64,000 bases of DNA from Ruminococcus sp. (GCA_045641105.1 JAZUGG010000121.1:3670-67669); one strand, 5' to 3'. Positions 737 to 50,651 are shown, counted from the first letter of the stretch. Notes: generated from the letters alone by a model not told the origin. A program made the numbers and translations.

Positions 737-755
737 AAAGTAAGCTTAGATACTT

Positions 756-832
756 GCTTCCTACGACGGTACTAACCGACAGGTTCAAAGGGTCAGATAA
801 AATCTTCTCAGCTGAAAACAGCTCCCCTGCAA
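756..832 (-). ncRNA. TPP riboswitch aptamer
   Basis: Minus strand GGGGAGCTG..CAGCTGAGA..GACCCTTTGAACCTG..GGTTAGTACCGTCGTAGGAAG matches the THI-box consensus (CTGAGA, ACCC..GAACCTG, CGTAGG); upstream of thiT. Confidence 0.93.
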
Positions 833-856
833 ATCTTTATTAAATTTACAACAGAT

Positions 857-28290: not shown

Positions 28291-29595
28291 TTATTTTATC
28301 TTTACACAGTTCCTTCCGGAGGATTTTGCGAGGTACATGGCTTCATCAACACGCTTGAAAGCATTGTTAGCTTCTTCATTTTCCTTAACTTCCGTAACAC
28401 CTATACTGCAGGTGATATGTCCGATCGTTTCAAAATTGGTATCGGCAATCAGAATGCGGAATTTTTCGGCAATACTTGCAGCTTCATTAAGCTGTATACC
28501 GAGACAGACAGCAAGAAATTCCTCTCCTCCCCATCTGCCAAACTTAATGTTATATTTCCTGAGAAAATCAACGGAAATTTTTGCAAGCTGTTTCAGAACA
28601 TCATCACCGACGGAATGACCGTATGTATCGTTAATATTCTTGAAGTGATCGAGGTCGATCATGATAATGGCTAATGGCTGATGAGTATCATTTTTGAAGC
28701 TGATAGCCTTATAGAATTCGGTCTCGGTTTTTCTGCGGTTATAAATGCCTGTGAGGGAATCTTTAGAAGCAAGTTCCTCATATTTTTTCAGTGTGGACAT
28801 AAGTTCAACTGTACTTTCATGAATGTTCTGAACCATGAATACGAATCTGAAATCGTTTTCATCATGAGTTTCAACACGGCTGAAAATGAGCTTTACCCAA
28901 ATGTAAACGCCTTCAAGATTCTGCATCTGACAGTCAAAGGAAGTTGTCCTGCCTGAAAGAAGGTGAGTTTTCAGGTATTCCGGTTCGGTTCTGTCAAGGA
29001 AAAGAGGCTGATCTTCGGGAAATATCATATTCACGATCATAAGCCGCCACTGAGAGTATGAAAGTTCGTTGGCATTCATAGGTTCGTCAGAGATTTCTGT
29101 AATACTGATACTGCTTATGGTATCATTTATGAGATCAACATACATAGAGAAAAGGTATGTATCCTGAATGCTGTCGATTTTTTTCTTGGTGAGAAATTCC
29201 TGAATGTACTCACTGTTGTCCAGTTCATTAAGTATCATGAGATACTTTTCAGGATCATTCAGAGGATAGAGTGACATTTGCACAACATGGGAAGTTCCGT
29301 TGAAAACCAGAGTAATTCTTTTGCTGTACTTGCCGTTGAATTTGCCGAATGCAGGGACAAAGACATGATAGTCCTCAGTTATTGCATCCGAACTGTTGTT
29401 GAAGTGAAACCATAGTTTTTCGATAAGATCATGATATTTTCCGCTTTTTTCAAATATATCAGCAAATATTCCTTTTTGATGAACAGCTCTGTATGAGTCG
29501 GATTCTGCATCGATAAGAAATACAGCATCGATTTCTTCACGTATGATCTCAGCTATGTCATTCAGCGTATAATTTTCGATTGATTTATAATCCAT
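28291..29595 (-). CDS. Diguanylate cyclase (GGDEF) with PAS-like N-terminus
   Basis: DSLTGIYNRR, DLDHFKNINDTYGHSVGD, GRWGGEEF, VDEAMYLAKSSGRN. Promoter TTGAAA-17-TATAAT at 29685-29713. Confidence 0.9.
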   Translation of the reverse strand: MDYKSIENYTLNDIAEIIREEIDAVFLIDAESDSYRAVHQKGIFADIFEKSGKYHDLIEKLWFHFNNSSDAITEDYHVFVPAFGKFNGKYSKRITLVFNGTSHVVQMSLYPLNDPEKYLMILNELDNSEYIQEFLTKKKIDSIQDTYLFSMYVDLINDTISSISITEISDEPMNANELSYSQWRLMIVNMIFPEDQPLFLDRTEPEYLKTHLLSGRTTSFDCQMQNLEGVYIWVKLIFSRVETHDENDFRFVFMVQNIHESTVELMSTLKKYEELASKDSLTGIYNRRKTETEFYKAISFKNDTHQPLAIIMIDLDHFKNINDTYGHSVGDDVLKQLAKISVDFLRKYNIKFGRWGGEEFLAVCLGIQLNEAASIAEKFRILIADTNFETIGHITCSIGVTEVKENEEANNAFKRVDEAMYLAKSSGRNCVKIK

Positions 29596-29737
29596 TATTT
29601 GTCTGATCCCTCGTTTCATCAGAATATATCAGAAATTCAAAGTACAGGTCACATTAAATTTCCATAAAAAGATAACATATAAATATTATATCACAAAATT
29701 GCTGATATTTCAATAGCTAAAATAAAATATTACATAT

Positions 29738-29895
29738 GGGCGGCTCTAAAAACCCCTTCTGGGAAAAAGGAGCTATGCACAGCATCTGTTGCGTCAAGCC
29801 CTCTCGTAGTGCGAAAGCACGCCTTCAAGGGCTTTTCTTGAATCTACTGTACCTATCTGTTTTTTCTTACTCAAAATGGGTTTTTAGAGATGCCC
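29738..29895. mobile_element. 158-bp MITE-like element, copy 1
   Basis: Terminal inverted repeats GGGC..CTCTAAAAACCC / GGGTTTTTAGAGATGCCC; ATAT direct repeat on both flanks; 141/158 identical without gaps to 48603-48760. Confidence 0.8.
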
Positions 29896-30058
29896 ATATA
29901 AGTTTTACATTTTTTATAATGCGGATGAAATATTGAAAAATAAATTAATTTGTGATAAAATATTTTTAGAGGTGTCCTTTAGCAGAAAAAAATATGTCCG
30001 CTGAGGATGTGATAAAGCGATTATATTTATGAACATGTTCAAAGGAGTGAAATAGATA

Positions 30059-30628
30059 ATGACTGACAGTCAGATGCGGGAACTGATTGAAAAATCTCCT
30101 ACATATGGTCAGCGTGCGGTATATGAGAATTACTGCGGCTATGTGTACGCAATAACTGCCAATTATCTGAAAAACTGCGGTTCTTCCGAGGATATCGAGG
30201 ACTGCGTGGCTGATACTTTCGTTGAGATATTTCGTTTGCTGACGGAAAAAAACGAAAAGGGAAAAGGGCTTAAAGGCTTGATATCAGTAGTTGCAAAAAG
30301 GCGTGCTATCGATAGATTCCGAAGTATATCATCGAAAAACAACAAAACTGTATCAATTGATGATATGGAGGAGGAAATATCCGAAAACGCAAGCATTTCC
30401 GAAAATGCAGAACGCTTGGAAATCCAGCATATTCTGATAGACTGCGTGAAAAAGCTCGGCGAGCCTGATTCCGATATTGTTATTCAGCATTATTACTATG
30501 GAAGAAGCTGTTCGCAGATAGGCGATAAACTAAGAATGTCGGAAAGCTCAATTCAGAAACGTATTCAGAGGGCAAGGGCAAAATTGAAAAAAATGCTCGA
30601 AAAATTCGGTATCAGCGGGGAATTATAA
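30059..30628 (+). CDS. ECF RNA polymerase sigma factor
   Basis: YCGYVYAITANYL, EDIEDCVADTF (region 2), KRRAIDRFR, HYYYG.SCSQIG..L.MSE (region 4). Confidence 0.9.
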   Translation: MTDSQMRELIEKSPTYGQRAVYENYCGYVYAITANYLKNCGSSEDIEDCVADTFVEIFRLLTEKNEKGKGLKGLISVVAKRRAIDRFRSISSKNNKTVSIDDMEEEISENASISENAERLEIQHILIDCVKKLGEPDSDIVIQHYYYGRSCSQIGDKLRMSESSIQKRIQRARAKLKKMLEKFGISGEL

Positions 30629-31469: not shown

Positions 31470-33716
31470 ATGAAAACGAATAGATATATAGCTTTATCAT
31501 CGGCAGTCATCCTTTTTGCTTCGGCGTTTGCGTCATGCGGAAAAGTGCCGAATGTTGCAGAATTTTCTTCAGATTCTGAACAGAATCTGATTCACCTTGA
31601 TGATTCATCTGAAAATAAAGTTACCATTGAAGGTCTTTATGAGGAAGTACCGTTTGACTATACTGATAAATATTATTTCTGGGAAGGGCTTGAAAAAGTC
31701 AATGATGATCTTTTTACTGCAACTCTTATATCAGGCAGTGAAGATGAACCTGAAATGCAGAAGGTCATAACTGACAGTTCGTTCAGTGATTTTGTTGTTG
31801 TTGATTATGATACACCTGAAGAAATAGCAGAAAAGGAAAATAGTTCGCTTAAATCTATGATGCCCACTGTTTCATTTTGTGATGACGGAAGCTTCAATGT
31901 TATCTGGCAGTTCTATGATCCGGATTATTGGGCAAATGTTGAGAATTATCTCGGACATTATGATAAAAACGGCGTTCTTGAAAATGTAATCAAAGTTGAT
32001 GCGCCTGATACAATGCAGATCTATGCGCAGGAGTCAATATCATACGGCAATTACATATATGCGAATTCAAATAATTCAATAATAAGAATTGACAGAACTG
32101 ACGGTTCAGTAACCACTATATATGATTATAATGATAAGGAATCAAAAACATATTTTGAGAGTTTTAAACGTGATAATGAAGGCAAGCCGCTTCTGGTTAT
32201 GGCCTGCTGTGATATTGAAACTTCGGAAATCTGCACTTATGTATACGAAATCGCTGACTGCGAGAGCCTGCCTGAACCTTTATGCACCTATCCGACAGAG
32301 CTAATAATGATTTATGAAGGATACGGCGAATATAAATATCTTAAACATACTTATGGCGATTATGCTGAAAAACTGTACGGCGTAAGAGCAGACGGAACAG
32401 AACAGCTTATTATTGACTGGGAACTTTCGAGATTATCATATCAATATTTTTGTCCTGTCGGAAATGATGAATTTGTTGCGCTCAAAGGTGTGGAAAGTTT
32501 AAATTACAGCAAGGATACACTTGTAAAACTTGTTAAAAAAGATGCTTCTTCGATGGAAAATACGAATTTCCTGACAGTATGTGATTACTATTCTGTTTTC
32601 AGAGGTGATACCTATAATTACAACAATTTACAGGACAGCTATCATGTTTTGCAGTTTACTATGAACTGCTCAAATTATACTGATGAGGAATTTGTTAATG
32701 GTCTTGATGAGTTAACGCCGTCAGAAGATTTCCCCGATATAATTATTTTCAACAACAGGTGGGAAATGTACAGATATGCAAATCAGGGCTTGCTTGCGGA
32801 TATGGGCGAGATAATGGACAATGATCCCGAATACGGCAGAGATGCATATGTACCGAATCTGCTTGAAATATTTACAGAGCCTGACAATAAAATATATGGA
32901 CTGCCGCTTTCATTTTATTACTGTACACTTGCCGTAAAGCCTAAATACTGGGATAAGCCAAGCTGGACGCTTGATGAGATGATATCCGAATTTGATAAGA
33001 ACGAGGATAATATGTGCTATATTTACGATAGTTATACAAGACAGCAAGTACTTACCGAACTTATAGCAAACAGTGAAGATCTGGTAGATTACAAAAACAA
33101 GACCAGCAATTTTAACAGTCCCGAATTTATAAAAATACTTGAATTTTCAAATCGTTTTCATGATGAAATTTCGTACAATGATATATATGCAAGAGAGAAT
33201 TATCAGCGTTTTGGTCTTGACAGAACACTTGTTGAAGAAACGGGAGAAGGTTATTCATACTGCAATACTAAATATTTAAAAGGATTAGGTGAAGATATTT
33301 CACTGGTAGGTTATCCATCTGACAGCGGAAACGGCGGTAGGCTCAGTGTGGAGTATATTGCGGCAATTTCCGAATCATGCACCAACAAAAAAGCCGCATA
33401 TGAATATATAAAATACATTGTTTCCGAATGTGGCACGGAACATCTGTTGTCATCCCTTGCCGAAAGATTTGAAAATGATGCCTATCGTGATGTCGGACTG
33501 GAATATAACGAATTCGGCTTCAAGATTCAGCCTCTGAGCAAAGAAGAAGCAGACATGCTTAAAGAGGAAATGCTTTCATGTCATTCTCTAAGAGAAATGC
33601 TCGGCTATAATTTTGAAGAATTTGTTACTGCTGAGGCGGATAGATACTTCAGCGGAGAGATATCCTCACAGGAAGCCGCTGAAAATATCCAGAGGATCGC
33701 AGATAAATTTATCTGA
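31470..33716 (+). CDS. Large lipoprotein with C-terminal extracellular solute-binding domain
   Basis: Lipobox FASC; FPDII, GLLADMGEIMD, IYGLPLSF, WTLDEM, VGYPS, NKKAAYEYIK, AAENIQ are typical of SBP_bac_1-like domains. Confidence 0.75.
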   Translation: MKTNRYIALSSAVILFASAFASCGKVPNVAEFSSDSEQNLIHLDDSSENKVTIEGLYEEVPFDYTDKYYFWEGLEKVNDDLFTATLISGSEDEPEMQKVITDSSFSDFVVVDYDTPEEIAEKENSSLKSMMPTVSFCDDGSFNVIWQFYDPDYWANVENYLGHYDKNGVLENVIKVDAPDTMQIYAQESISYGNYIYANSNNSIIRIDRTDGSVTTIYDYNDKESKTYFESFKRDNEGKPLLVMACCDIETSEICTYVYEIADCESLPEPLCTYPTELIMIYEGYGEYKYLKHTYGDYAEKLYGVRADGTEQLIIDWELSRLSYQYFCPVGNDEFVALKGVESLNYSKDTLVKLVKKDASSMENTNFLTVCDYYSVFRGDTYNYNNLQDSYHVLQFTMNCSNYTDEEFVNGLDELTPSEDFPDIIIFNNRWEMYRYANQGLLADMGEIMDNDPEYGRDAYVPNLLEIFTEPDNKIYGLPLSFYYCTLAVKPKYWDKPSWTLDEMISEFDKNEDNMCYIYDSYTRQQVLTELIANSEDLVDYKNKTSNFNSPEFIKILEFSNRFHDEISYNDIYARENYQRFGLDRTLVEETGEGYSYCNTKYLKGLGEDISLVGYPSDSGNGGRLSVEYIAAISESCTNKKAAYEYIKYIVSECGTEHLLSSLAERFENDAYRDVGLEYNEFGFKIQPLSKEEADMLKEEMLSCHSLREMLGYNFEEFVTAEADRYFSGEISSQEAAENIQRIADKFI

Positions 33717-33731
33717 AATAATTGTGAAAAA

Positions 33732-33769
33732 GCACCGCACAAAGTCATCAGACATACTTTGTGCGGTGT
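33732..33769 (+). terminator. GCACCGCACAAAGT hairpin family, copy B (terminator)
   Basis: GCACCGCACAAAGT-loop-ACTTTGTGCGGTGT followed by T-rich sequence. Confidence 0.7.
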
Positions 33770-33792
33770 TGTCTTTATTTGTTGAGATTGGG

Positions 33793-33821
33793 TTGACTTT
33801 ATACAGCGAATGAGATATAAT
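33793..33821 (+). promoter_or_regulatory. sigmaA promoter for the tatD/two-component operon
   Basis: TTGACT-17 bp-TATAAT. Confidence 0.7.
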
Positions 33822-33912
33822 AATTGTATCGTTTCACTATTCAGAATCTTTCTTCATAAGCTGAATATACAGATTTTTGACAACAACTTCACATAAAACA
33901 AGAGGTGGTAAA

Positions 33913-34686
33913 ATGATAAAATATTATGATATTGGACTGAATTTGTTTTGCAGACAGTTCAGAGAGCCTGAAAAAATAATCAGCGATGCGGCTGAATACG
34001 GAGTTAGCTGTATTCTTACAGGTTCGGATATGAAAAGCAGTGAGAGCGTGAACAAATTTGTTAAAACTCATGATTGTTACGGAACGTGCGGCATACATCC
34101 GCATAGTGCGGATAATGCGACAGCCGACAGTTTCAGGCGTATCCGAGAGGTAGTTTCAGGCAATGAAAAGATAGTGGCAGTAGGCGAATGCGGACTGGAT
34201 TACGACAGAATGTTTTCAACCCGTGACAACCAGATACGTTGTTTTGAGCATCACATAAAAATTGCAGAGGAGCTTGACAAGCCGCTTTTTCTGCATGAGC
34301 GTTCGGCAGCAGACGACTTTATCGCAAGATTCAAAAAGCATGGTGATATCTGCAAAAAATCGGTAGTTCATTGTTTTACGGGCGATAAAGATACGCTGAA
34401 AAAGTATATTGACATGGGATTCTTCATCGGCATCACAGGCTGGATATGTGATGACAGGCGTGGAAAGGAACTGCGTGAGGCTGTGAAGTATATTCCGCTT
34501 GACAGGCTGATGATAGAGACTGATGCGCCTTATCTTACCCCAAAGAATGTTCCGGGACTTGACAGGACAAATCTGCCGCAGAACATAAAATATGTGGCAG
34601 AGGAACTTGCAAAGCATATGAAAATTGATGCTGAGACTCTGACTGAACAGGTGCGTGAGAATACAAAGAAATTTTTCGGTATCTGA
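33913..34686 (+). CDS. tatD: TatD-family nuclease
   Basis: DIGLN, GIHPH, VGECGLDY, FLHER, VHCFTG, ETDAPYL. Confidence 0.92.
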   Translation: MIKYYDIGLNLFCRQFREPEKIISDAAEYGVSCILTGSDMKSSESVNKFVKTHDCYGTCGIHPHSADNATADSFRRIREVVSGNEKIVAVGECGLDYDRMFSTRDNQIRCFEHHIKIAEELDKPLFLHERSAADDFIARFKKHGDICKKSVVHCFTGDKDTLKKYIDMGFFIGITGWICDDRRGKELREAVKYIPLDRLMIETDAPYLTPKNVPGLDRTNLPQNIKYVAEELAKHMKIDAETLTEQVRENTKKFFGI

Positions 34687-36545: not shown

Positions 36546-36641
36546 TTGTTTTTTGACCAGAAAAAATGTATGATATATATGTCAGCAGAAATAAAGACAA
36601 CACCACACAAAGAGTGTGAATAAAAACTACTGGAGGAAAAA

Positions 36642-43955: not shown

Positions 43956-46748
43956 TCAGGCAATTTTCTTGCAGGCCTCTGCATAATCATAAAGGGCAAC
44001 GCAAAGATTTTTAAGAGATGCATCAGCACTGTCTGACGAAAGAGTATTGTAGATGTAGTCATAAATGCTGTAATCATATCCTTCTATTATCTTATCATAT
44101 TCAGTAGGAATGAATTCTTGTTCAATGTAATAGTATGTTGTACCGCCTTCTGTGCTTGGAAGCTTTATCTTTCTTCCCGGAGCATTCTCAGTGAAATAGT
44201 GACGGAGAACAGTGTTTGTTTTGAGAAGCAGTGATGTGCCATAGTAATCCTCATCGGTTATGCCTTTTGAAGGAGTAATGCTGTTTTTAACCCTTGTAAG
44301 ATCATCAGATGTATACTCAAGCGGATAATCAGCGGACTGATTGAAATAGCAGTTTGCAAATCTTCCATAGTTTATGAAAGCTTCGGCAAATTCTGCATAC
44401 TCAGGCTGAGTGTTTCTGAGCGCTGTGATGTAGTCGCTGACTGTGAAACTGAGTGAATCGACCTTGGATTTGTCGCCGAGAACGATCTGGGCTGTGATAG
44501 GATTGAACATATCCTTTGTTGCAACATGACAACTGAAAATATAGCATTCCTTGCCGTTCTGAGTCGTTTTTTCTGCGGCAGAAACCGGCGCATTGACTAC
44601 AGTATTGTCAGGCATAATGAAGTTTATGGAAGCTTGTTCATCGGCAAGTATTGCATCATCAAGTGTCATATATACATTTACGCCGATAGAACCGTCGATG
44701 TTGATCGAATAGCCTTCAAAACGGGTATTTGTATAAGGATTCTTTTCGCCGCAGTATGAGCAGACATCGTAATGATAATCATGGAACTGAGGATATTCAT
44801 GGAATTTTCCGTTGTTTTCTCCGATTTGGATATTATCCCACTGCTCTTTAGTGCCGCAGTAAATGATCTTGTTGAGATTCTTTGTGCTGTAGAAAATGTT
44901 CTTCTCAATTGTTTTCAGACTTGTCGGGATATAGAGTTCTTTCAGACTGCTGCATCCGGTGAATGCACCTGATTCGATAGTTTCGATATTCTTTGAAAGT
45001 GTAAATTCGCTGAGGTTAGGGCACTGTGCGAATGTTGAATCTTTAAGGACAGTCACGCCGTCAGGCATTCCGAAGCCCTTGAGCGATTCGCAGCCGTTGA
45101 ATGCAGATGCACCGAGATATGTAAGCTGTGAGTCACTTGAAAGAAGCGCATATTTTAAATTATAGCAGTCAATAAATGCGTTGTCGTCGATTTTGGTTAC
45201 AGAGTCAGGAATAGCAACTTCCTCCATACCACAGGCGAAGAATGCCTGAAAACCAATGGTTTTAAGTCCATCCGGCAGGGTAAGTTTTTCAAGTGCATTA
45301 GCACCTGCAAAGCAGTCCTTCGGGATTTCTGTTACTCCTTCCGGGATATTCAGTTCCTTTAAAGGATAGCAGCAGTAGAATGAAGCTTCACCAAGAGAGG
45401 TGAGAGTGCTTGGCAGTTCGATAGTATCCAGACTTTCGGCGCCATAGAAAGCAAAATCAGCGATTGACGTAAGTCCTTCCGGGAAATTGATGTTTTTCAG
45501 CTTTGGATCATGTGCAAATGAATTGAGATTGATTTTTGTAATTGTTGACGGAAGAACAACGGTTTCAAGATTTTCAAAGTACTCAAAGGCACGCACGCCG
45601 GCAGATTTAATGCCTTCTCCAATTACGATTTTCTTAACCATTTTACGGTAATTAGACCATCCGGAAGTGAATGAAGCTGTTCTTTCCTGGTCACGCATTT
45701 CGCAATTTCCGCTGAGTGTGAGAACGCCGTCGGAGGTGATTTTCCAGTTGATATAATCGCTCGAATATTTTCCGTGATCTCTGCCCTCGTAAACCACATA
45801 AGTAAAAGGCGCATTTTGTATAGCGGCATCGCCTACGAAAGCGTTATCTGCGAAACTGATGCCGTCAGGAATATCAAGGCTGGTGAGCTTAGGACAATCT
45901 GAAAAAGCACCCTCACCAACTGTTGCGGCGGGATTTGAAATTTTCAAGCTTTCAACAGAACTGCATCCCTGAAAAGCGCAGTCGCCTATTTTGGTAACAC
46001 TTTCAGGAATATCGATGTTTTTCAGACCTATACATGCTTCAAAAGCGTTGTATGAGATTTCTTTCAATCCGGCAGGTAAGTCGATTGAAGTAAGAGATAT
46101 ACAGCCTGAAAAAGCATAATATTCAATTTCTTCAACTGAGGCAGGTATATTTACATCTGTAAGATTTGAGCATCCCGAAAACATAACTGCACCTATTGAT
46201 TTAATAGAATCAGGAAGAACGACCTTTTGAAGTTTCAGGCTGTCTGCCACGATTGCTCCGTCCATTTCAGTTACGGAATTCGGGAAAACTATTTCCGTAC
46301 AGCCTGTGTTTGAGAAAGCTCTGCTCCAGATCTCCTTAACTGAAGATGGAATGCTGACCGAAGTCAGCTTCGGGGTGTTCATAAAAGCACAGTTTTGTAT
46401 AATGGTGACTGTGTCTGGAATTGATACGCTTTCAAGATTCGGGCAGTCTGAAAAAGAGTATGGGCTGATAGATGTAATGCCTTTTTCAATAATTACTTTT
46501 TTGATCTCAGAACGCCTTAGATCCCATTTAACAGATTTTGCGTTGATCTCATATGGCATTTCGCCGGTACCGCTGATTCTCATTGTACCGTCAGCATCTA
46601 TGTCCCATGCAAAATCGGCAGCGGTATCAGCGTTTGCTGTCAGTACAACTGAATTGTCAAGAAAAGAAGTGAACGGAATAGAATAATTCATAGCAAGAAT
46701 GGATACTACAGCCATAATTCCGGCTATGGTTTTTTTGTGACTTATCAT
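43956..46748 (-). CDS. Large secreted BspA-type LRR protein with uncharacterised C-terminal domain
   Basis: Signal peptide; two LRR_5 blocks each led by W.I..DG..T/R.SG; HDY...C..CG motif; C-terminal FEGYSINIDGSIGVNVY domain; no dockerin or LPxTG seen. Confidence 0.88.
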   Translation of the reverse strand: MISHKKTIAGIMAVVSILAMNYSIPFTSFLDNSVVLTANADTAADFAWDIDADGTMRISGTGEMPYEINAKSVKWDLRRSEIKKVIIEKGITSISPYSFSDCPNLESVSIPDTVTIIQNCAFMNTPKLTSVSIPSSVKEIWSRAFSNTGCTEIVFPNSVTEMDGAIVADSLKLQKVVLPDSIKSIGAVMFSGCSNLTDVNIPASVEEIEYYAFSGCISLTSIDLPAGLKEISYNAFEACIGLKNIDIPESVTKIGDCAFQGCSSVESLKISNPAATVGEGAFSDCPKLTSLDIPDGISFADNAFVGDAAIQNAPFTYVVYEGRDHGKYSSDYINWKITSDGVLTLSGNCEMRDQERTASFTSGWSNYRKMVKKIVIGEGIKSAGVRAFEYFENLETVVLPSTITKINLNSFAHDPKLKNINFPEGLTSIADFAFYGAESLDTIELPSTLTSLGEASFYCCYPLKELNIPEGVTEIPKDCFAGANALEKLTLPDGLKTIGFQAFFACGMEEVAIPDSVTKIDDNAFIDCYNLKYALLSSDSQLTYLGASAFNGCESLKGFGMPDGVTVLKDSTFAQCPNLSEFTLSKNIETIESGAFTGCSSLKELYIPTSLKTIEKNIFYSTKNLNKIIYCGTKEQWDNIQIGENNGKFHEYPQFHDYHYDVCSYCGEKNPYTNTRFEGYSINIDGSIGVNVYMTLDDAILADEQASINFIMPDNTVVNAPVSAAEKTTQNGKECYIFSCHVATKDMFNPITAQIVLGDKSKVDSLSFTVSDYITALRNTQPEYAEFAEAFINYGRFANCYFNQSADYPLEYTSDDLTRVKNSITPSKGITDEDYYGTSLLLKTNTVLRHYFTENAPGRKIKLPSTEGGTTYYYIEQEFIPTEYDKIIEGYDYSIYDYIYNTLSSDSADASLKNLCVALYDYAEACKKIA

Positions 46749-46787
46749 AATGATTACCTCCCTCAATGTAAATCATCCTTATTTCTA

Positions 46788-46945
46788 TTGCTCCACCAAC
46801 TAAATCTTGAATTTTACTGCTTGTCCTGAAGAAGAAATTCTGCGTCAGAAAACCTTGAAATACGCCAGTATTCCTGCGGCTTTCTTCCTTGACTTTCTCC
46901 TTCATTACTTCGCATAAATTATTCAAGACTTAATTGGCGGAGCAA
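46788..46945 (-). mobile_element. 158-bp palindromic element (second subfamily) in the predicted 5' UTR of the LRR gene
   Basis: Inverted ends TTGCTCCACCAACTAAATCTTGAAT / ATTCAAGACTTAATTGGCGGAGCAA flanked by TA; 52-nt core in register with the two MITE copies. Confidence 0.65.
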
Positions 46946-46980
46946 TACAATCTAACCGAATCATTAGATTGTATAAATTA

Positions 46981-47009
46981 AGTATAGCATAAAAATATTA
47001 ATAAGTCAA
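46981..47009 (-). promoter_or_regulatory. sigmaA promoter for the LRR-peptide operon
   Basis: TTGACT-17 bp-TATACT on the minus strand. Confidence 0.7.
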
Positions 47010-47468
47010 TAAAACTTGTTAATATTTTCTTCACAAACAAAATTTTGTAAGAATTTCCTGAAATAGGAGAATTTGCTTGTATGAATTGAATAATAAAAAG
47101 ATGTTATACCTTTGAAAATAAAAGTTAAAATATAATAGTATATAATTAATTCAATAGGGTATTATAAGAAATTGCGGCTGTGTTCAAAAATAATTCATAA
47201 AAAAATTACATATTATGAATGTATTATGAAAATTGTTTTAAGATAAAGTGAATTGAATTATGTTATTTCCGTTATTGGTCAGAGTGCATAAAAACAACGT
47301 GAAAAAAACGTCGTATTGTGCAGTGACAGTACGTGAATCAGTAATTGACTTTGGGGTGAAAATGTGGTAAAATATACTATTATATAAGAACTCAATTGGT
47401 TCTGATACAGAAAAAGCAGTGGTCTATAAATGACACGCTGCAAAAATAAAATATCGGTGGGTGAAAAA

Positions 47469-48596
47469 ATGGGTAACTTCAACAAACATGATACAACAAG
47501 AGATGCCTGTCAGCTATACGGAAAACAGGCAAAAAACGGCTATGACTGGTGGTGGAATTCACTGACGGCATACCATGAAAAAACAGGCGCACCAAAACAG
47601 TTTTTCATCGAATTTTTTCTCTGTAATCCCGCACTTGGAAAAAATTATCCTGTATACGGTCAGCTGCCTGAAAATCAGCGCAAACACAGAAAACCGTCAT
47701 ATATGATGGTAAAAGTCGGAACATGGGGAAAAGATGCTGTACAGCTCAACCGCTTTTTCGGCTGGAAAAAAGTCAGGGTAAATATGAGCGATGATTTCTG
47801 CATAAGTGCGGACGACTGCCGTATCGATGAATATCATACATCAGGTACAGTGGACATTAATGCTGAAACAGCAGCTGAACATCCCGAAATGATGACTGAC
47901 AGCGGAAGTATGTCGTGGAATCTGCTTATCAATAAGAAGGTTGCGTATAATGTCGGATACGGCGCAGGCAGAACTTTCCGCAAAATGCAGCTTTTTGAGA
48001 TGTTCTGGCACGCAGAAGGTATGCAGACAGCTTTTGACGGCGAAATTATCCTGAACGGCGAGAAGTATATAGTGAAACCGAATACTTGTTTCGGCTATTC
48101 TGACAAGAACTGGGGCAGGGATTTTACGTCTCCGTGGGTGTGGCTGTCATCTAATGACCTTTACAGCAAGACGTTTAAATGCAGACTCAATGACAGTGTA
48201 TTCGATATCGGAGGAGGATGCCCGAAAATAGGTTGTATTGCGCTTAAAAGAAAGCTTTTGTCGGCATTCTGGTATGAGGGACAGTGTTTCGAGTTCAATT
48301 TCTCAAAATTCTGGGAATTTCCGACTACAAAATTTGACTGCCGTGAAACTGAGGATAAGGTGATATGGCACGTTGACCAGTCCGCACTCGGCAGGCGGAT
48401 GGTGGCGGATATCGTCTGTGACAAGGCTGATATGCTTTTGATAAATTATGAAGCACCGAACGGCAAAAAACTTCATAACAGGCTGTGGAACGGCGGAAAC
48501 GGCAGGGGACGCATCAGGCTTTATAAATGGGGAAAACTTGTTGATGAGATATTATGCCGGAATGTTGGCTGTGAATACGGTGAGTACGGCAAATAA
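47469..48596 (+). CDS. Tocopherol-cyclase-like protein
   Basis: GYDWWW, FFIEFF, GYSDKNWGRDF..PWVW aromatic motifs typical of this beta-barrel family. Confidence 0.7.
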   Translation: MGNFNKHDTTRDACQLYGKQAKNGYDWWWNSLTAYHEKTGAPKQFFIEFFLCNPALGKNYPVYGQLPENQRKHRKPSYMMVKVGTWGKDAVQLNRFFGWKKVRVNMSDDFCISADDCRIDEYHTSGTVDINAETAAEHPEMMTDSGSMSWNLLINKKVAYNVGYGAGRTFRKMQLFEMFWHAEGMQTAFDGEIILNGEKYIVKPNTCFGYSDKNWGRDFTSPWVWLSSNDLYSKTFKCRLNDSVFDIGGGCPKIGCIALKRKLLSAFWYEGQCFEFNFSKFWEFPTTKFDCRETEDKVIWHVDQSALGRRMVADIVCDKADMLLINYEAPNGKKLHNRLWNGGNGRGRIRLYKWGKLVDEILCRNVGCEYGEYGK

Positions 48597-48602
48597 TCAA
48601 TA

Positions 48603-48760
48603 GGGCACCTCTAAAAACCCCTTCTGAGAAAAAACAGCTATGTACAGCATATGCTGTGTCAATCCCTCTCGTAGTGCGAAAGCACGCCTTCAAGAGCTTT
48701 CCTTGCATCTGTTGCACCTATCTGTTTTTTCTTACTCAAAACGGGTTTTTAGAGATGCCC
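48603..48760. mobile_element. 158-bp MITE-like element, copy 2
   Basis: GGGCACCTCTAAAAACCC...GGGTTTTTAGAGATGCCC; AATA direct repeat on both flanks; 89% identical to copy 1. Confidence 0.8.
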
Positions 48761-48959
48761 AATAATTATATATGGCAACAATGCACAAAAATGACAACTA
48801 TTATCTGTGCACTGTTGCCATAACTTTTTTTCATGTTCCGGTAAAAATAGCCAAGACGCTGATTTTTTGAAGAATGTCGAAAATTGCTTGAAAAAAGCTG
48901 ATTTTAGTAGTATAATTAAAAACGTTTTCCACACAAAAATTCAGAAGTGAGGTAATTTT

Positions 48960-50651
48960 ATGTCAGAACAGGCTGTAAAACCAACCGAAGAAAAGCTGAA
49001 ACCGAAACTTTTCTCGGTACTGAAAAATTATTCAAAGGAGCAGTTCTTTAAGGATATCGTTGCAGGTATAGTTGTTGCCATAATCGCTATCCCGCTTTCA
49101 ATTGCCCTTGCACTTGCATCAGGCGTAAATCCTGAACAGGGACTTTATACAGCAATTGTTGCAGGTTTTATTGTATCCTTCCTCGGCGGAAGCCGTGTGC
49201 AGATCGCAGGCCCGACTGCCGCATTTGCTACGATAGTTGCAGGAATTGTAGCTTCAGAAGGCATGGACGGTTTGATTATCTCAACAATTATGGCAGGAAT
49301 CATTATGCTGATTATGGGCTTCTGCCGTTTCGGCGCACTCATAAAATATATCCCCGGAACTATAACGACAGGTTTTACATTCGGTATCGCCGTGACGATA
49401 CTTGTGGGACAGATCAAGGATTTTCTTGGCCTTACCTTCAAAAATTCACCGATAGAAACCGTTGATAAGATAAAGGAGGTATTCCTCTGCATCGACACAT
49501 TTAACTGGCAGGCGTTTGTTATTGGTCTAATATCACTTGCGATACTTGTTCTTTGGCCAAAAAAGCTTGAAAAGATACCTGCATCACTTATAGCAGTTCT
49601 TGTATGTTCGCTTATTGTAAATCTTTCGGATATGAAAGTCAATACCATAGGTGACTTGTATCAGATATCATCGTCACTTCCGCATCTCACAATTCCTGAC
49701 GTGACTTTTGCAAGAGTCAAGGCACTTATCCCGAATGCATTTACAATAGCTGTTCTTGCGGCTGTTGAATCACTGCTTTCATGTGTTGTATCCGATGGTA
49801 TGGTAGGTTCAAAGCACCGCTCAAATATGGAACTTATTGCACAGGGTACTGCAAATATCGGTTCTGCGCTCTTTGGCGGTATCCCTGCAACAGGAGCTAT
49901 TGCAAGAACAGCCGCAAACGTAAAGAACGGCGGCAGAACACCTGTTTCAGGCATGGTTCATTCAGTTGTTGTTCTTCTTATTCTATGTATTCTCATGCCG
50001 AAAGCATCGCTTATTCCAATGCCGACAATTGCGGCTATTCTTTTTGTTGTAGCATATAATATGTGCGGCTGGAGAAATATCAGAAATACACTTCGTACAG
50101 CACCTAAAAGCGATGTTGCAGTTCTCTTTGTGACACTTATTTTTACGGTTGTATTTGACCTCGTTGTTGCAATTGGTGTAGGTCTTGTACTTGCCGCTCT
50201 GCTCTTTATGAAGCGTATGGCAGACGTTACAGAAGGTCATGTATGGATTGATGTTGATGATGAGGAAACTGATCCTGATAATATCCTCCTGAAAAAAATT
50301 CCTGAAAGAACCCGTGTTTATGAAATAAACGGTCCTATGTTCTTTGCGGCAACGGACAAGTTCAGATTTGTTCTTTCCGATAAGAATATTGATGTACTTT
50401 GCATAAGAATGAGAAATGTTCCTGCGATTGATGCCTCAGGTGTTGAAATGCTGATGAGTGTAGTCAAAAGATGCAAAAAGCATAAAATAGAGGTCATATT
50501 CTCTCATGTAAATGAACAGCCGATGAAAGCAATGGAAAAGGCTGGATTCTTTGAACAGATAGGCAGAGAAAACTTCTGCGATCATATCGATACCGCACTT
50601 CTGAGGGCAGAAGAAATTGAGAATGGCATTAAGCAAAATAAAAAGAATTAA
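48960..50651 (+). CDS. SulP/SLC26 anion transporter with STAS domain
   Basis: DIVAGIVV...PLSIALA, GLYTA, QIAGPT, ESLL, NMELIAQG, ARTAAN, C-terminal STAS (GPMFF, IDASG). TTGAAA-17-TATAAT at 48888-48916. Confidence 0.92.
   Translation: MSEQAVKPTEEKLKPKLFSVLKNYSKEQFFKDIVAGIVVAIIAIPLSIALALASGVNPEQGLYTAIVAGFIVSFLGGSRVQIAGPTAAFATIVAGIVASEGMDGLIISTIMAGIIMLIMGFCRFGALIKYIPGTITTGFTFGIAVTILVGQIKDFLGLTFKNSPIETVDKIKEVFLCIDTFNWQAFVIGLISLAILVLWPKKLEKIPASLIAVLVCSLIVNLSDMKVNTIGDLYQISSSLPHLTIPDVTFARVKALIPNAFTIAVLAAVESLLSCVVSDGMVGSKHRSNMELIAQGTANIGSALFGGIPATGAIARTAANVKNGGRTPVSGMVHSVVVLLILCILMPKASLIPMPTIAAILFVVAYNMCGWRNIRNTLRTAPKSDVAVLFVTLIFTVVFDLVVAIGVGLVLAALLFMKRMADVTEGHVWIDVDDEETDPDNILLKKIPERTRVYEINGPMFFAATDKFRFVLSDKNIDVLCIRMRNVPAIDASGVEMLMSVVKRCKKHKIEVIFSHVNEQPMKAMEKAGFFEQIGRENFCDHIDTALLRAEEIENGIKQNKKN

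What the first reader, a model, noticed from the sequence alone, without database searches (positions are those of the whole stretch)
29734..29899. 158-bp MITE-like element in two copies, each with its own 4-bp target duplication
Seen: 29738-29895 and 48603-48760 are both exactly 158 bp and align without gaps with 17 mismatches. They have 18-bp terminal inverted repeats and are flanked by ATAT/ATAT and AATA/AATA respectively. Different duplications at the two sites are the signature of independent transposition. There is no coding capacity and no transposase in the window. Copy 1 sits between two divergent promoters; copy 2 starts 6 bp after a stop codon. I cannot assign it to a named element.
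Basis: partly seen in the sequence, partly recalled or inferred. Interest (0 to 1): 0.7.

Follow-up and report, generated by a model that had tools for sequence, protein, structure and literature searches.

The report
Small IS5-type mobile repeat (MITE)
This is a 158-bp non-coding "hitch-hiker" transposon (a MITE) of gut Ruminococcus-type bacteria that is moved by an IS5-family transposase encoded elsewhere; it is real and very abundant, but it is an ordinary kind of element.

Summary
Positions 29738-29895 and 48603-48760 are gap-free 158-bp copies with 17 mismatches. Their inverted termini match at 16/18 and 17/18 positions, and they are flanked by ATAT/ATAT and AATA/AATA.

The MITE interpretation is supported, and the family can now be assigned.
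- Eleven more full copies in other Ruminococcus/Oscillospiraceae genomes are all intergenic. Nine of the ten with both flanks readable have a perfect 4-bp duplication, and the tenth matches 3 of 4.
- The same ~18-nt terminus bounds complete 1.2-1.3 kb insertion sequences that also make 4-bp duplications.
- Their transposases score as IS5 family (NF033581, 259-284 bits, cutoff 140; DUF772 + DDE_Tnp_1). The closest named relative is IS1194.
- The MITE shares only about 19 nt at each end with these IS, so it is a "type II" MITE and not a deletion derivative.
- In public gut samples the element's depth is roughly 50-800 times that of its flanks.
- A relative about 85% identical lacks the element at site 2.

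Not shown: no IS5 transposase lies in the window, the host's own partner was not identified, and no precise empty allele was found.

One feature goes beyond the minimum. The whole element forms a hairpin maintained by compensatory changes, with no strand or orientation bias. New member of a known kind; modest interest.

The parts
29738..29895 (+). MITE copy 1 (158 bp), in the divergent intergenic region between a GGDEF-domain gene (28291-29619, -) and a sigma-70/ECF-type gene (30059-30628, +)
   Evidence: repeat boundaries confirmed by contigs that break at 29735-29744 and 29895-29899 and continue into different flanks
29734..29737 (.). left copy of the target-site duplication ATAT of copy 1
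29896..29899 (.). right copy of the target-site duplication ATAT of copy 1
29738..29755 (+). left terminal inverted repeat GGGCGGCTCTAAAAACCC (inferred transposase-binding end)
29878..29895 (+). right terminal inverted repeat GGGTTTTTAGAGATGCCC, identical to ends of IS5-family IS next to a transposase N-terminus (L006, L081, L114)
29796..29834 (+). central stem-loop of copy 1 (alignment columns 59-97), with GNNA/UNNC loop and compensatory changes between subfamilies
48603..48760 (+). MITE copy 2 (158 bp), 6 bp after the stop codon of ORF 47430-48596 (+) and upstream of a terminator-like hairpin, so probably in that gene's 3' UTR; 199 bp upstream of a SulP-family permease gene (48960-50651)
   Evidence: boundaries confirmed by contigs breaking at 48600-48603 and 48760-48761
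48599..48602 (.). left copy of the target-site duplication AATA of copy 2
48761..48764 (.). right copy of the target-site duplication AATA of copy 2
48603..48620 (+). left terminal inverted repeat GGGCACCTCTAAAAACCC, identical to both ends of the complete gut IS in L205 and to the left end of L068/L108
48743..48760 (+). right terminal inverted repeat GGGTTTTTAGAGATGCCC
48661..48699 (+). central stem-loop of copy 2 (alignment columns 59-97)
29685..29713 (-). promoter-like site TTGAAA-17-(TG)TATAAT facing the GGDEF gene, 25 bp from the left end of copy 1 (context, not part of the element)
29933..29961 (+). promoter-like site TTGAAA-17-(TG)TAAAAT facing the sigma-factor gene, 38 bp from the right end of copy 1 (context)
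48771..48832 (+). terminator-like hairpin (-23.2 kcal/mol, z -5.9) followed by a T-run, downstream of copy 2 (context)
   Evidence: not called by the simple scan because its loop is long

Best explanation
[quoted passage not shown] It is a non-coding, non-autonomous DNA transposon that carries only the roughly 18-19-nt ends recognised by a DDE transposase of the IS5 family (IS5 group, IS1194-like).

Inferred mechanism: the transposase is made by a full-length IS elsewhere in the genome or community. It binds the two inverted ends, cuts the element out or copies it, and inserts it at a staggered 4-bp cut in AT-rich DNA, with a preference for W-T-A-W. Repair of the stagger produces the 4-bp direct repeat at each site.

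Because the interior is unrelated to the IS, this is a 'type II' MITE, not an internally deleted IS.

The interior is an element-long imperfect palindrome. When transcribed it forms a long hairpin. Copy 2 lies between a stop codon and a terminator-like hairpin, so it is probably transcribed. Copy 1 sits between two divergent promoters without interrupting either. Any effect on neighbouring genes is inferred, not shown.
For: SHOWN
1. Two gap-free copies with inverted ends and 4-bp flanking repeats.
2. Eleven more full copies (157-158 bp, about 79-91% identical to copy 1) in other Ruminococcus, Oscillospiraceae and related genomes. With the window's two, 11 of the 12 copies whose flanks are both readable have perfect 4-bp duplications, a different 4-mer at most sites.
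3. 4 bp is a sharp mode. It holds for 10/11 in the family subset, with a permuted mean of 1.6 and none of 5000 permutations reaching 10.
4. The same terminus bounds complete 1.2-1.3 kb IS with 4-bp duplications: L021 TTTA, L106 TTCA, L205 TATA, L168 TGCA, L173 AAAA, L210 ATAT.
5. Their transposases are IS5 family: NF033581 at 259-284 bits against a cutoff of 140, with PF05598 + PF01609.
6. In Clostridia contigs the exact MITE terminus GGGCATCTCTAAAAACCC lies about 50 nt from an IS5-type transposase start (L006, L081, L114), and the same end type occurs in a Ruminococcus MAG (L019, L075).
7. L159 is a complete 1242-bp copy of the L081 type with an intact 343-aa ORF.
8. An annotated IS1194-family element ends in GGGCACCTCTAAAAACGT.
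9. The element is a high-copy dispersed repeat. Its depth is roughly 50-800 times that of its flanks in eight public runs, and dozens of contigs break at its boundaries into different flanks.
10. The orthologous site 2 lacks the element in a relative about 85% identical.
11. All 13 copies are intergenic, there is no conserved ORF and no Rfam family matches.

INFERRED
Mobilisation in trans, the staggered-cut mechanism (established knowledge of DDE transposases) and transcription of copy 2.
Against: 1. No autonomous IS5 copy is in the window.
2. The host's own partner was not identified. The two gut IS tested (L159 and L168 types) are not present at 80-85% identity or better in the samples that hold the window's organism. 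Only short conserved transposase fragments are present, one at high depth.
3. No precise empty allele, meaning flanks joined with a single copy of the 4-mer, was recovered. The only empty site is in a diverged relative where the intergenic DNA cannot be aligned base by base.
4. One family copy (L123) has an imperfect duplication, TAAA/TGAA.
5. Many complete IS in metagenome contigs lack matching flanks: only 11/36 are perfect. This is plausibly due to chimeric assembly of multi-copy IS, but that was not shown.
6. Transposition was never observed.
7. The compensatory maintenance of the interior hairpin is not required by the simple MITE model and remains unexplained.
Confidence: 0.9

Rival explanations
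1. The element began as a MITE, but its element-long hairpin is now kept by selection for a host-level or RNA-level role. Examples would be a 3'-UTR stabiliser or an RNase III/RNase E processing site, as described for Correia and ERIC elements, or a transcription barrier between neighbouring genes. This adds a function to the best explanation and does not replace it.
For: The hairpin is supported by covariation: 10 of 50 pairs keep pairing through changes on both sides, against 4.1 +/- 1.3 in shuffles (0/500) and 0-3 in slid controls, and 97.5% of cells are paired. The family is 93% conserved per column across species-level genomes. About half of the copies lie 0-46 bp after a stop codon. Copy 2 lies between a stop codon and a terminator-like hairpin. 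Family sequence is present in contigs of an RNA run, joined to several different flanks. RNase III cleavage of Correia-containing mRNAs and an RNase E effect of ERIC at 3' ends are described in PMC10969869.
Against: Apart from one invariant G-T pair, wobble pairs show no strand asymmetry (7 against 7). There is no orientation bias relative to the upstream gene. Both points argue against a strand-specific RNA function. The double-sided changes mostly separate two subfamilies, so they represent few independent events. Proximity to stop codons can follow simply from a W-T-A-W target preference, since TAA is such a site; in L083b the duplication ATAA contains the stop. Arm-to-arm correction in a DNA palindrome could produce the same pattern without selection. 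The RNA run may contain DNA.
Confidence: 0.2
2. The element is mobilised by a transposase of another family that makes short duplications (IS1182, IS701, IS1380, IS982), and the match to IS5-family ends is coincidental.
For: The IS1182 and IS982 models give secondary, sub-threshold hits to the same transposases, which shows that these families are related. The host's own partner was not identified.
Against: Every complete element found with these termini encodes a protein that passes only the IS5 model: NF033581 at 259-284 bits against a cutoff of 140, while IS1182 scores 135-142 against 270 and IS982 scores 33-59 against 130. Element lengths (1.2-1.3 kb) and the 4-bp duplication are the same for the IS and the MITE.
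Confidence: 0.03
3. The two sequences are copies of a structured non-coding RNA gene or cis-regulatory RNA, not a transposable element. The flanking 4-mers are chance matches in AT-rich DNA.
For: Strong folds (z -3.8 to -9.5), a conserved central stem-loop with a GNNA loop, and covariation.
Against: No Rfam match, even at E <= 1. Both strands fold equally well or better on the minus strand. Both orientations occur relative to genes. Perfect 4-bp duplications with varying sequence occur at 11/12 sites (permutation control). The termini are identical to IS5-family IS ends. The element is at very high copy with many different flanks.
Confidence: 0.02
4. It is a REP/BIME-type palindromic repeat spread by a RAYT (IS200/IS605-like) single-strand transposase.
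For: Palindromic; the centre of the window copies contains GTAG followed by a small palindrome (GTAGTGCGAAAGCAC), reminiscent of the REP head motif (recalled from memory).
Against: The GTAG is GGAG in most family members. REP/RAYT systems do not make target duplications (established knowledge), whereas this element has 4-bp duplications at 11/12 sites. The element has long terminal inverted repeats identical to those of DDE-type IS.
Confidence: 0.01

Closest known systems
IS5 family, IS5 group insertion sequences with GGGCAYCTCTAAAAAC... ends; closest named relative is IS1194 (annotated as 'IS5-like element IS1194 family transposase' in Lactococcus plasmids)
   Same: The first 16 of 18 terminal nucleotides match: IS1194-family copy L208 has GGGCACCTCTAAAAACGT, window copy 2 has GGGCACCTCTAAAAACCC. 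Related IS with these ends make the same 4-bp duplication (L210 ATAT/ATAT, L205 TATA/TATA). The gut IS with identical ends (L159) is about 51% identical in protein to the IS1194-family transposase.
   Different: The MITE has no transposase and is 158 bp instead of about 1200 bp. Beyond about 19 nt its sequence is unrelated to any IS end examined. ISfinder was not available, so assignment to a named ISfinder entry was not tested.
Type II MITEs that share only their TIRs with IS5-family elements: Porphyromonas gingivalis BrickBuilt, MITE239/293/464/700 (ISPg1/3/4/9) and the Neisseria meningitidis ATR element (ISNme1)
   Same: Same logic: a short non-coding element whose terminal inverted repeats are identical or nearly identical to those of IS5-family IS in related genomes, with no transposase remnant inside (PMC4596501).
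   Different: The termini differ (GAGACCTTTGCA... there). BrickBuilt contains a minisatellite and its duplications vary in length. Reported copy number is 10-20 per genome, whereas this family appears far more abundant. A different host phylum.
Hairpin-forming bacterial MITEs with post-transcriptional effects: Correia/NEMIS (Neisseria), ERIC (enterobacteria), RUP (pneumococcus)
   Same: About 100-160 bp, intergenic, high copy. The whole element folds into a long stem-loop when transcribed, and copies often lie in 5' or 3' UTRs (PMC10969869).
   Different: No sequence similarity. Correia and RUP have TA or other duplications and different proposed transposases (from memory). RNase processing is shown for those elements and was not tested here.

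Membership tests
[quoted passage not shown] | Small size (about 50-800 bp) and no coding capacity | tested here: met
   158 bp; no frame is open in both copies; no transposase similarity
[quoted passage not shown] | Terminal inverted repeats | tested here: met
   18-nt ends complementary at 16/18 and 17/18; invariant or nearly so in 13 copies
[quoted passage not shown] | Target-site duplications of fixed length that differ between sites | tested here: met
   11/12 perfect 4-bp duplications, a different 4-mer at most sites; permutation and offset controls
[quoted passage not shown] | Multiple dispersed copies | tested here: met
   2 in the window, 11 more full copies in other genomes; depth about 50-800 times the flanks, with many different flanks
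[quoted passage not shown] | Presence/absence polymorphism (empty sites) | tested here: inconclusive
   Site 2 is empty in a relative about 85% identical. No precise empty allele was found in 12 runs, whose contigs are too fragmented
[quoted passage not shown] | An autonomous element with matching ends that can supply transposase | tested here: met
   Complete IS5-family IS with identical or near-identical ends exist in gut Clostridia and other phyla. Presence in the same genome was not shown
IS5-family-derived element (IS5 group) | Ends match those of IS whose transposase passes the IS5-family model | tested here: met
   NF033581 at 259-284 bits (cutoff 140) for L021, L108, L159 and L205, all bounded by the terminus
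IS5-family-derived element (IS5 group) | Same duplication length as the autonomous IS (4 bp) | tested here: met
   L021, L106, L168, L173, L205, L210 and several human-gut copies have perfect 4-bp duplications
IS5-family-derived element (IS5 group) | Mobilisation by that transposase | not testable with these tools
   Needs a transposition assay
IS5-family-derived element (IS5 group) | Internal sequence derived from the parent IS (type I, deletion derivative) | tested here: not met
   Beyond about 19 nt the ends of the MITE and of 14 complete IS are unrelated. It is therefore filed as type II (TIR-only), which does not exclude IS5 mobilisation
Known RNA family (Rfam 15) | Match to a covariance model | tested here: not met
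   No hit at gathering score, nor at E <= 1 over 29650-29990
REP/RAYT palindromic repeats | Conserved GTAG head and no target duplication | tested here: not met
   GTAG is not conserved; 4-bp duplications are present
IS630/Tc1-mariner-type MITE | TA duplication | tested here: not met
   A 2-bp direct repeat is seen at only 6/51 short elements, against 28/51 for 4 bp

The most novel reading that the evidence does not exclude
The roughly 18-nt terminus GGGCAYCTCTAAAAAC is shared almost unchanged by IS5-group elements and by many unrelated MITE interiors in several distant bacterial groups (Clostridia, Campylobacterota, Bacteroidota, Spirochaetia, Alphaproteobacteria, Nitrospirota, Desantisbacteria). 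In the Ruminococcus family the interior is an element-long hairpin kept by compensatory change. The most novel reading not excluded has two parts. First, this IS5 subgroup repeatedly generates new MITEs from foldback sequences. Second, the hairpin itself is selected. It could act as a single-stranded DNA intermediate that helps transposition, or it could be an orientation-independent RNA or DNA structure that the host uses at gene ends.
Probability: 0.15. Interest if true: 0.5.

Novelty: new member of a known kind. Interest (0 to 1): 0.3.

Why it matters
For annotation, this explains two otherwise puzzling structured intergenic sequences. It also flags a repeat family that breaks short-read assemblies of Ruminococcus and Oscillospiraceae genomes, because many contigs end inside it or inside its parent IS.

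For biology, a very abundant MITE that prefers W-T-A-W sites lands next to stop codons and between promoters. It is therefore a plausible source of regulatory variation between strains of fibre-degrading gut bacteria.

It is also a convenient natural system for asking why some MITEs keep an element-long hairpin. None of this is unexpected for a bacterial MITE.

Tried and rejected
1. Structured RNA reading. Rfam at gathering score and at E <= 1 found nothing at the element. Both strands fold, and there is no strand or orientation bias.
2. Exact look-up of the two flanking proteins, to find sister strains and empty sites: not on record.
3. Viral contigs. Only IS ends were found, no MITE copies. 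The phage collection gave no match.
4. Full-length parent via a protein search with the 67-aa N-terminus from L081. Only truncated proteins of 47-118 aa were returned, because assemblies break in the IS. This was solved with the metagenome scan.
5. Plasmid collection with the truncated protein: only distant hits.
6. Is the L159-type or L168-type IS present in the host's samples? No, not at 80-85% identity or better. Only short conserved fragments of other IS5 transposases were found.
7. Precise empty alleles in eight more run-site combinations: none, because the contigs are too short.
8. Literature search for the terminus sequence returned only unrelated primer matches. No paper describing this element in Ruminococcus was found.
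9. IS1168 (Bacteroides), although about 50% identical in protein, lacks this terminus.
10. REP/RAYT and IS630-type assignments were rejected on duplication length and motif conservation.

Full report
OBSERVATION

Positions 29738-29895 and 48603-48760 are each 158 bp and align without gaps with 17 mismatches. The ends are inverted repeats of 18 nt, complementary at 16/18 and 17/18. The flanks are ATAT/ATAT and AATA/AATA. The terminus, with up to three mismatches, occurs only at these four ends of the window (expected 0.05), and a repeat scan finds no further copy.

Copy 1 lies in the 439-bp region between a GGDEF-domain gene on the minus strand and a sigma-70/ECF-type gene on the plus strand. 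It sits between two strong extended -10 promoter-like sites and interrupts neither. Copy 2 begins 6 bp after the stop codon of ORF 47430-48596. It is followed by a stable hairpin with a T-run at 48771-48832, and then by a promoter-like site and a SulP-family permease gene.

The inverted symmetry therefore runs through the whole element, not only through 18 bp.

WHAT IT IS

Eleven further full-length copies of this same 157-158-bp family, about 79-91% identical to copy 1, were found in Ruminococcus, Oscillospiraceae, Candidatus Ornithomonoglobus and other Clostridia MAGs. Truncated copies were found at contig ends.

With the window's two copies, 12 of the 13 copies have both flanks readable. 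Eleven of these have a perfect 4-bp direct repeat: ATAT, AATA, TTAA, ATAA, TAAA, ATAA, ATAT, GAAA, TTAT, TTAA, TTTA. The twelfth matches at 3 of 4 positions.

Among all elements bounded by this terminus, 4 bp is a sharp mode. It holds for 28/51 short elements, against 0-6/51 for lengths 2, 3, 5 and 6 and 0-3 at offset positions. Permuting the flanks gives a mean of 2.7. In the family subset it holds for 10/11, and none of 5000 permutations reaches 10. The duplicated 4-mers show a W-T-A-W preference.

THE AUTONOMOUS PARTNER

The same terminus bounds complete elements of 1.2-1.3 kb with 4-bp duplications. Examples are L021 in Pseudomonas bohemica (1208 bp, TTTA) and L106 (1214 bp, TTCA). Their ORFs pass the NCBIfam IS5-family model NF033581 at 259-265 bits against a cutoff of 140. 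The IS1182, IS982 and ISNCY models stay far below their cutoffs.

In Clostridia contigs the exact MITE end GGGCATCTCTAAAAACCC lies about 50 nt from the start of an IS5-type transposase (L006, L081, L114). The same end type is present in a Ruminococcus MAG (L019, L075). All of these are cut at contig ends, and all database relatives of the N-terminus are truncated.

A metagenome scan with one such fragment recovered complete gut copies:
- L159: 1242 bp, an intact 343-aa ORF, with the same N-terminus as L081.
- L205: 1247 bp, GGGCACCTCTAAAAACCC at both ends, TATA/TATA.
- L168: TGCA/TGCA.
- L173: AAAA/AAAA.
- A human-gut clade with GGTAACCTCTAAAAACCC ends and ATAT or ATAA duplications.

L159 and L205 score 277-284 bits on NF033581 and have the DUF772 + DDE_Tnp_1 architecture.

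Annotated relatives at about 50% protein identity include the IS1194 family in Lactococcus. That copy ends in GGGCACCTCTAAAAACGT and spans 1200 bp. Another is an Aliarcobacter plasmid IS with ATAT/ATAT. IS1168 of Bacteroides lacks the terminus.

Beyond about 19 nt the MITE ends are unrelated to the ends of 14 complete IS. The element is therefore a TIR-only ('type II') MITE, not a deletion derivative. The window contains no IS5-type transposase.

ABUNDANCE AND POLYMORPHISM

Contigs from eight public runs that hold this window's DNA (gut, faecal and horse metagenomes, plus runs labelled with a coded organism) were laid on both sites. Word depth over the element is roughly 50-800 times that of the flanks. 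Dozens of contigs end at 29735-29744 / 29895-29899 and at 48600-48603 / 48760-48761 and continue into different sequences.

These contig sets are community-wide, so the ratio is not a per-genome copy number. The window itself has two copies in 64 kb.

Site 1 is occupied in three runs: X1, X3 and X11. At site 2, one contig from a relative about 85% identical covers both flanks and skips 48581-48769, with 19 nt in between. That is an empty site in a related lineage. No precise empty allele was recovered.

The L159 and L168 IS types are not in these samples at 80-85% identity or better. Short conserved IS5-transposase fragments are present, one at depth 126-334. The host's own partner therefore remains unidentified.

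THE HAIRPIN

An alignment of 13 copies has 93% mean column identity and shows two subfamilies. The consensus fold has 50 pairs. Ten of them keep pairing through changes on both sides, mainly in the central stem, which reads AAGCCCT...AGGGCTT in one subfamily and AACCTCC...GGAAGGTT in the other. Controls give 4.1 +/- 1.3 such pairs in shuffles (0/500 reach 10) and 0-3 in slid structures. 97.5% of cells are paired.

Three cautions apply:
- The changes mostly separate two subfamilies, so they represent few events.
- Excluding one invariant G-T pair, wobble pairs are equally frequent on either strand (7 against 7).
- Copies occur in both orientations downstream of genes.

The structure is therefore maintained, but not in a strand-specific way. 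This fits a DNA-level palindrome or an orientation-independent effect better than a dedicated RNA.

All 13 copies are intergenic, and about half lie 0-46 bp after a stop codon. In L083b the duplication ATAA contains the stop. A W-T-A-W target preference explains this without invoking function.

Family sequence is present in contigs of an RNA run, joined to several different flanks, though DNA carry-over is possible.

MECHANISM AND RIVALS

The best-supported account has three steps:
1. An IS5-family DDE transposase supplied in trans binds the conserved ends.
2. It inserts the element at a 4-bp staggered cut in AT-rich DNA.
3. Repair of the stagger gives the duplication.

The ends, the duplications, the copy number and the existence of matching IS are shown. 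The trans-mobilisation and cutting steps follow from established knowledge of DDE transposases.

A post-transcriptional or insulating role of the hairpin, as for Correia and ERIC elements (PMC10969869), is possible (about 0.2) but untested. Mobilisation by another IS family, a stand-alone RNA gene and a REP/RAYT repeat are each contradicted by specific tests.

COMPARISON AND NOVELTY

MITEs that share only their TIRs with IS5-family elements are already described: BrickBuilt and related elements of P. gingivalis, and the Neisseria ATR with ISNme1 (PMC4596501). No paper describing this Ruminococcus family or its terminus was found.

It is a new member of a known kind.

Noticed in passing
window 46784-46947 (read on the - strand): A second, unrelated MITE-like repeat of about 162 bp with a ~25-nt terminal inverted repeat (TTGCTCCGCCAATTAAGTCTTGAAT...ATTCAAGATTTAGTTGGTGGAGCAA). 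It has TA/TA flanks in the window and in L085. Copies are 96-97% identical in two other species (L085 199-360, L105 1-142), with weaker copies in L083 and L091. It is also high-copy by depth (the bin at 46564-47227 reaches up to 299, against about 5). In the window it lies between a promoter-like site and the RBS of a 936-aa BspA-type LRR protein gene, so in the 5' UTR. No Rfam hit.
   Followed up: partly
window ~33733-33780 (and inverted partner 36589-36617): A small repeat with raised depth in public runs (the bin at 33284-33947 reaches 40-56, against about 2). Contigs in other samples join it directly to the start or end of the 158-bp MITE. The 29-nt arms at 33752-33780 and 36589-36617 are 90% complementary.
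   Followed up: no
L014 182-365, L027 2298-2481, L050 543-707 (Ruminococcus MAG FUKU06_bin.005): A different MITE family (165-184 bp) with the same 18-nt termini and an unrelated interior; L050 has ATAA/ATAA. One transposase type therefore appears to serve several MITE families in the same genus.
   Followed up: partly
L013, L015, L029, L031, L039, L096 (Campylobacterota, ~265 bp); L043, L056, L119 (Cytophagales, 87-88 bp); L099, L080 (Tannerellaceae, 121 bp); L036, L062 (Spirochaeta, ~155 bp); L113 (Alphaproteobacteria, 146 bp); L122, L101, L058 (141 bp): The terminus GGGCAYCTCTAAAAAC is nearly unchanged across distant bacterial groups. In each it bounds lineage-specific short elements, many with 4-bp duplications. 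This is an unusually conserved IS end that has given rise to many independent MITE families.
   Followed up: partly
P0001, P0002, P0003, P0024 (proteins): Several gut 'transposase' fragments share the first ~65 residues with the L081/L159 type and then diverge into unrelated sequence. This suggests decayed or internally rearranged IS copies that could be intermediates towards non-autonomous elements.
   Followed up: no
L105 3995-4094 (100 bp), L077 4897-5021 (125 bp), L125 729-816 (88 bp), L066 1711-1808 (98 bp, R. flavefaciens FD-1): Shorter variants keep both ends of the 158-bp family but lack the centre. In L105 and L077 the 4-nt flanks are reverse complements of each other (TTAT/ATAA, TAAA/TTTA) and not direct repeats. 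That hints at foldback or hairpin-mediated rearrangement instead of simple insertion.
   Followed up: no
window 48601-48762 (run X9): One contig joins the right end of the element (48762) back to 48601 ('goes back 162'). This is either two elements in tandem sharing a duplication somewhere in that sample, or an assembly cycle.
   Followed up: no
window 741-838 (- strand): TPP riboswitch (RF00059, 66.7 bits, gathering score 54.3). It is the only Rfam family above threshold in the window.
   Followed up: no
L076 5064-5108: A sequence that begins like the 158-bp MITE for 45 nt (GGGCACCTCTAAAAACCCCTTCTGAGAAAAAGCAACTATGCAGAG) and then diverges. It may be a larger or interrupted family member.
   Followed up: no
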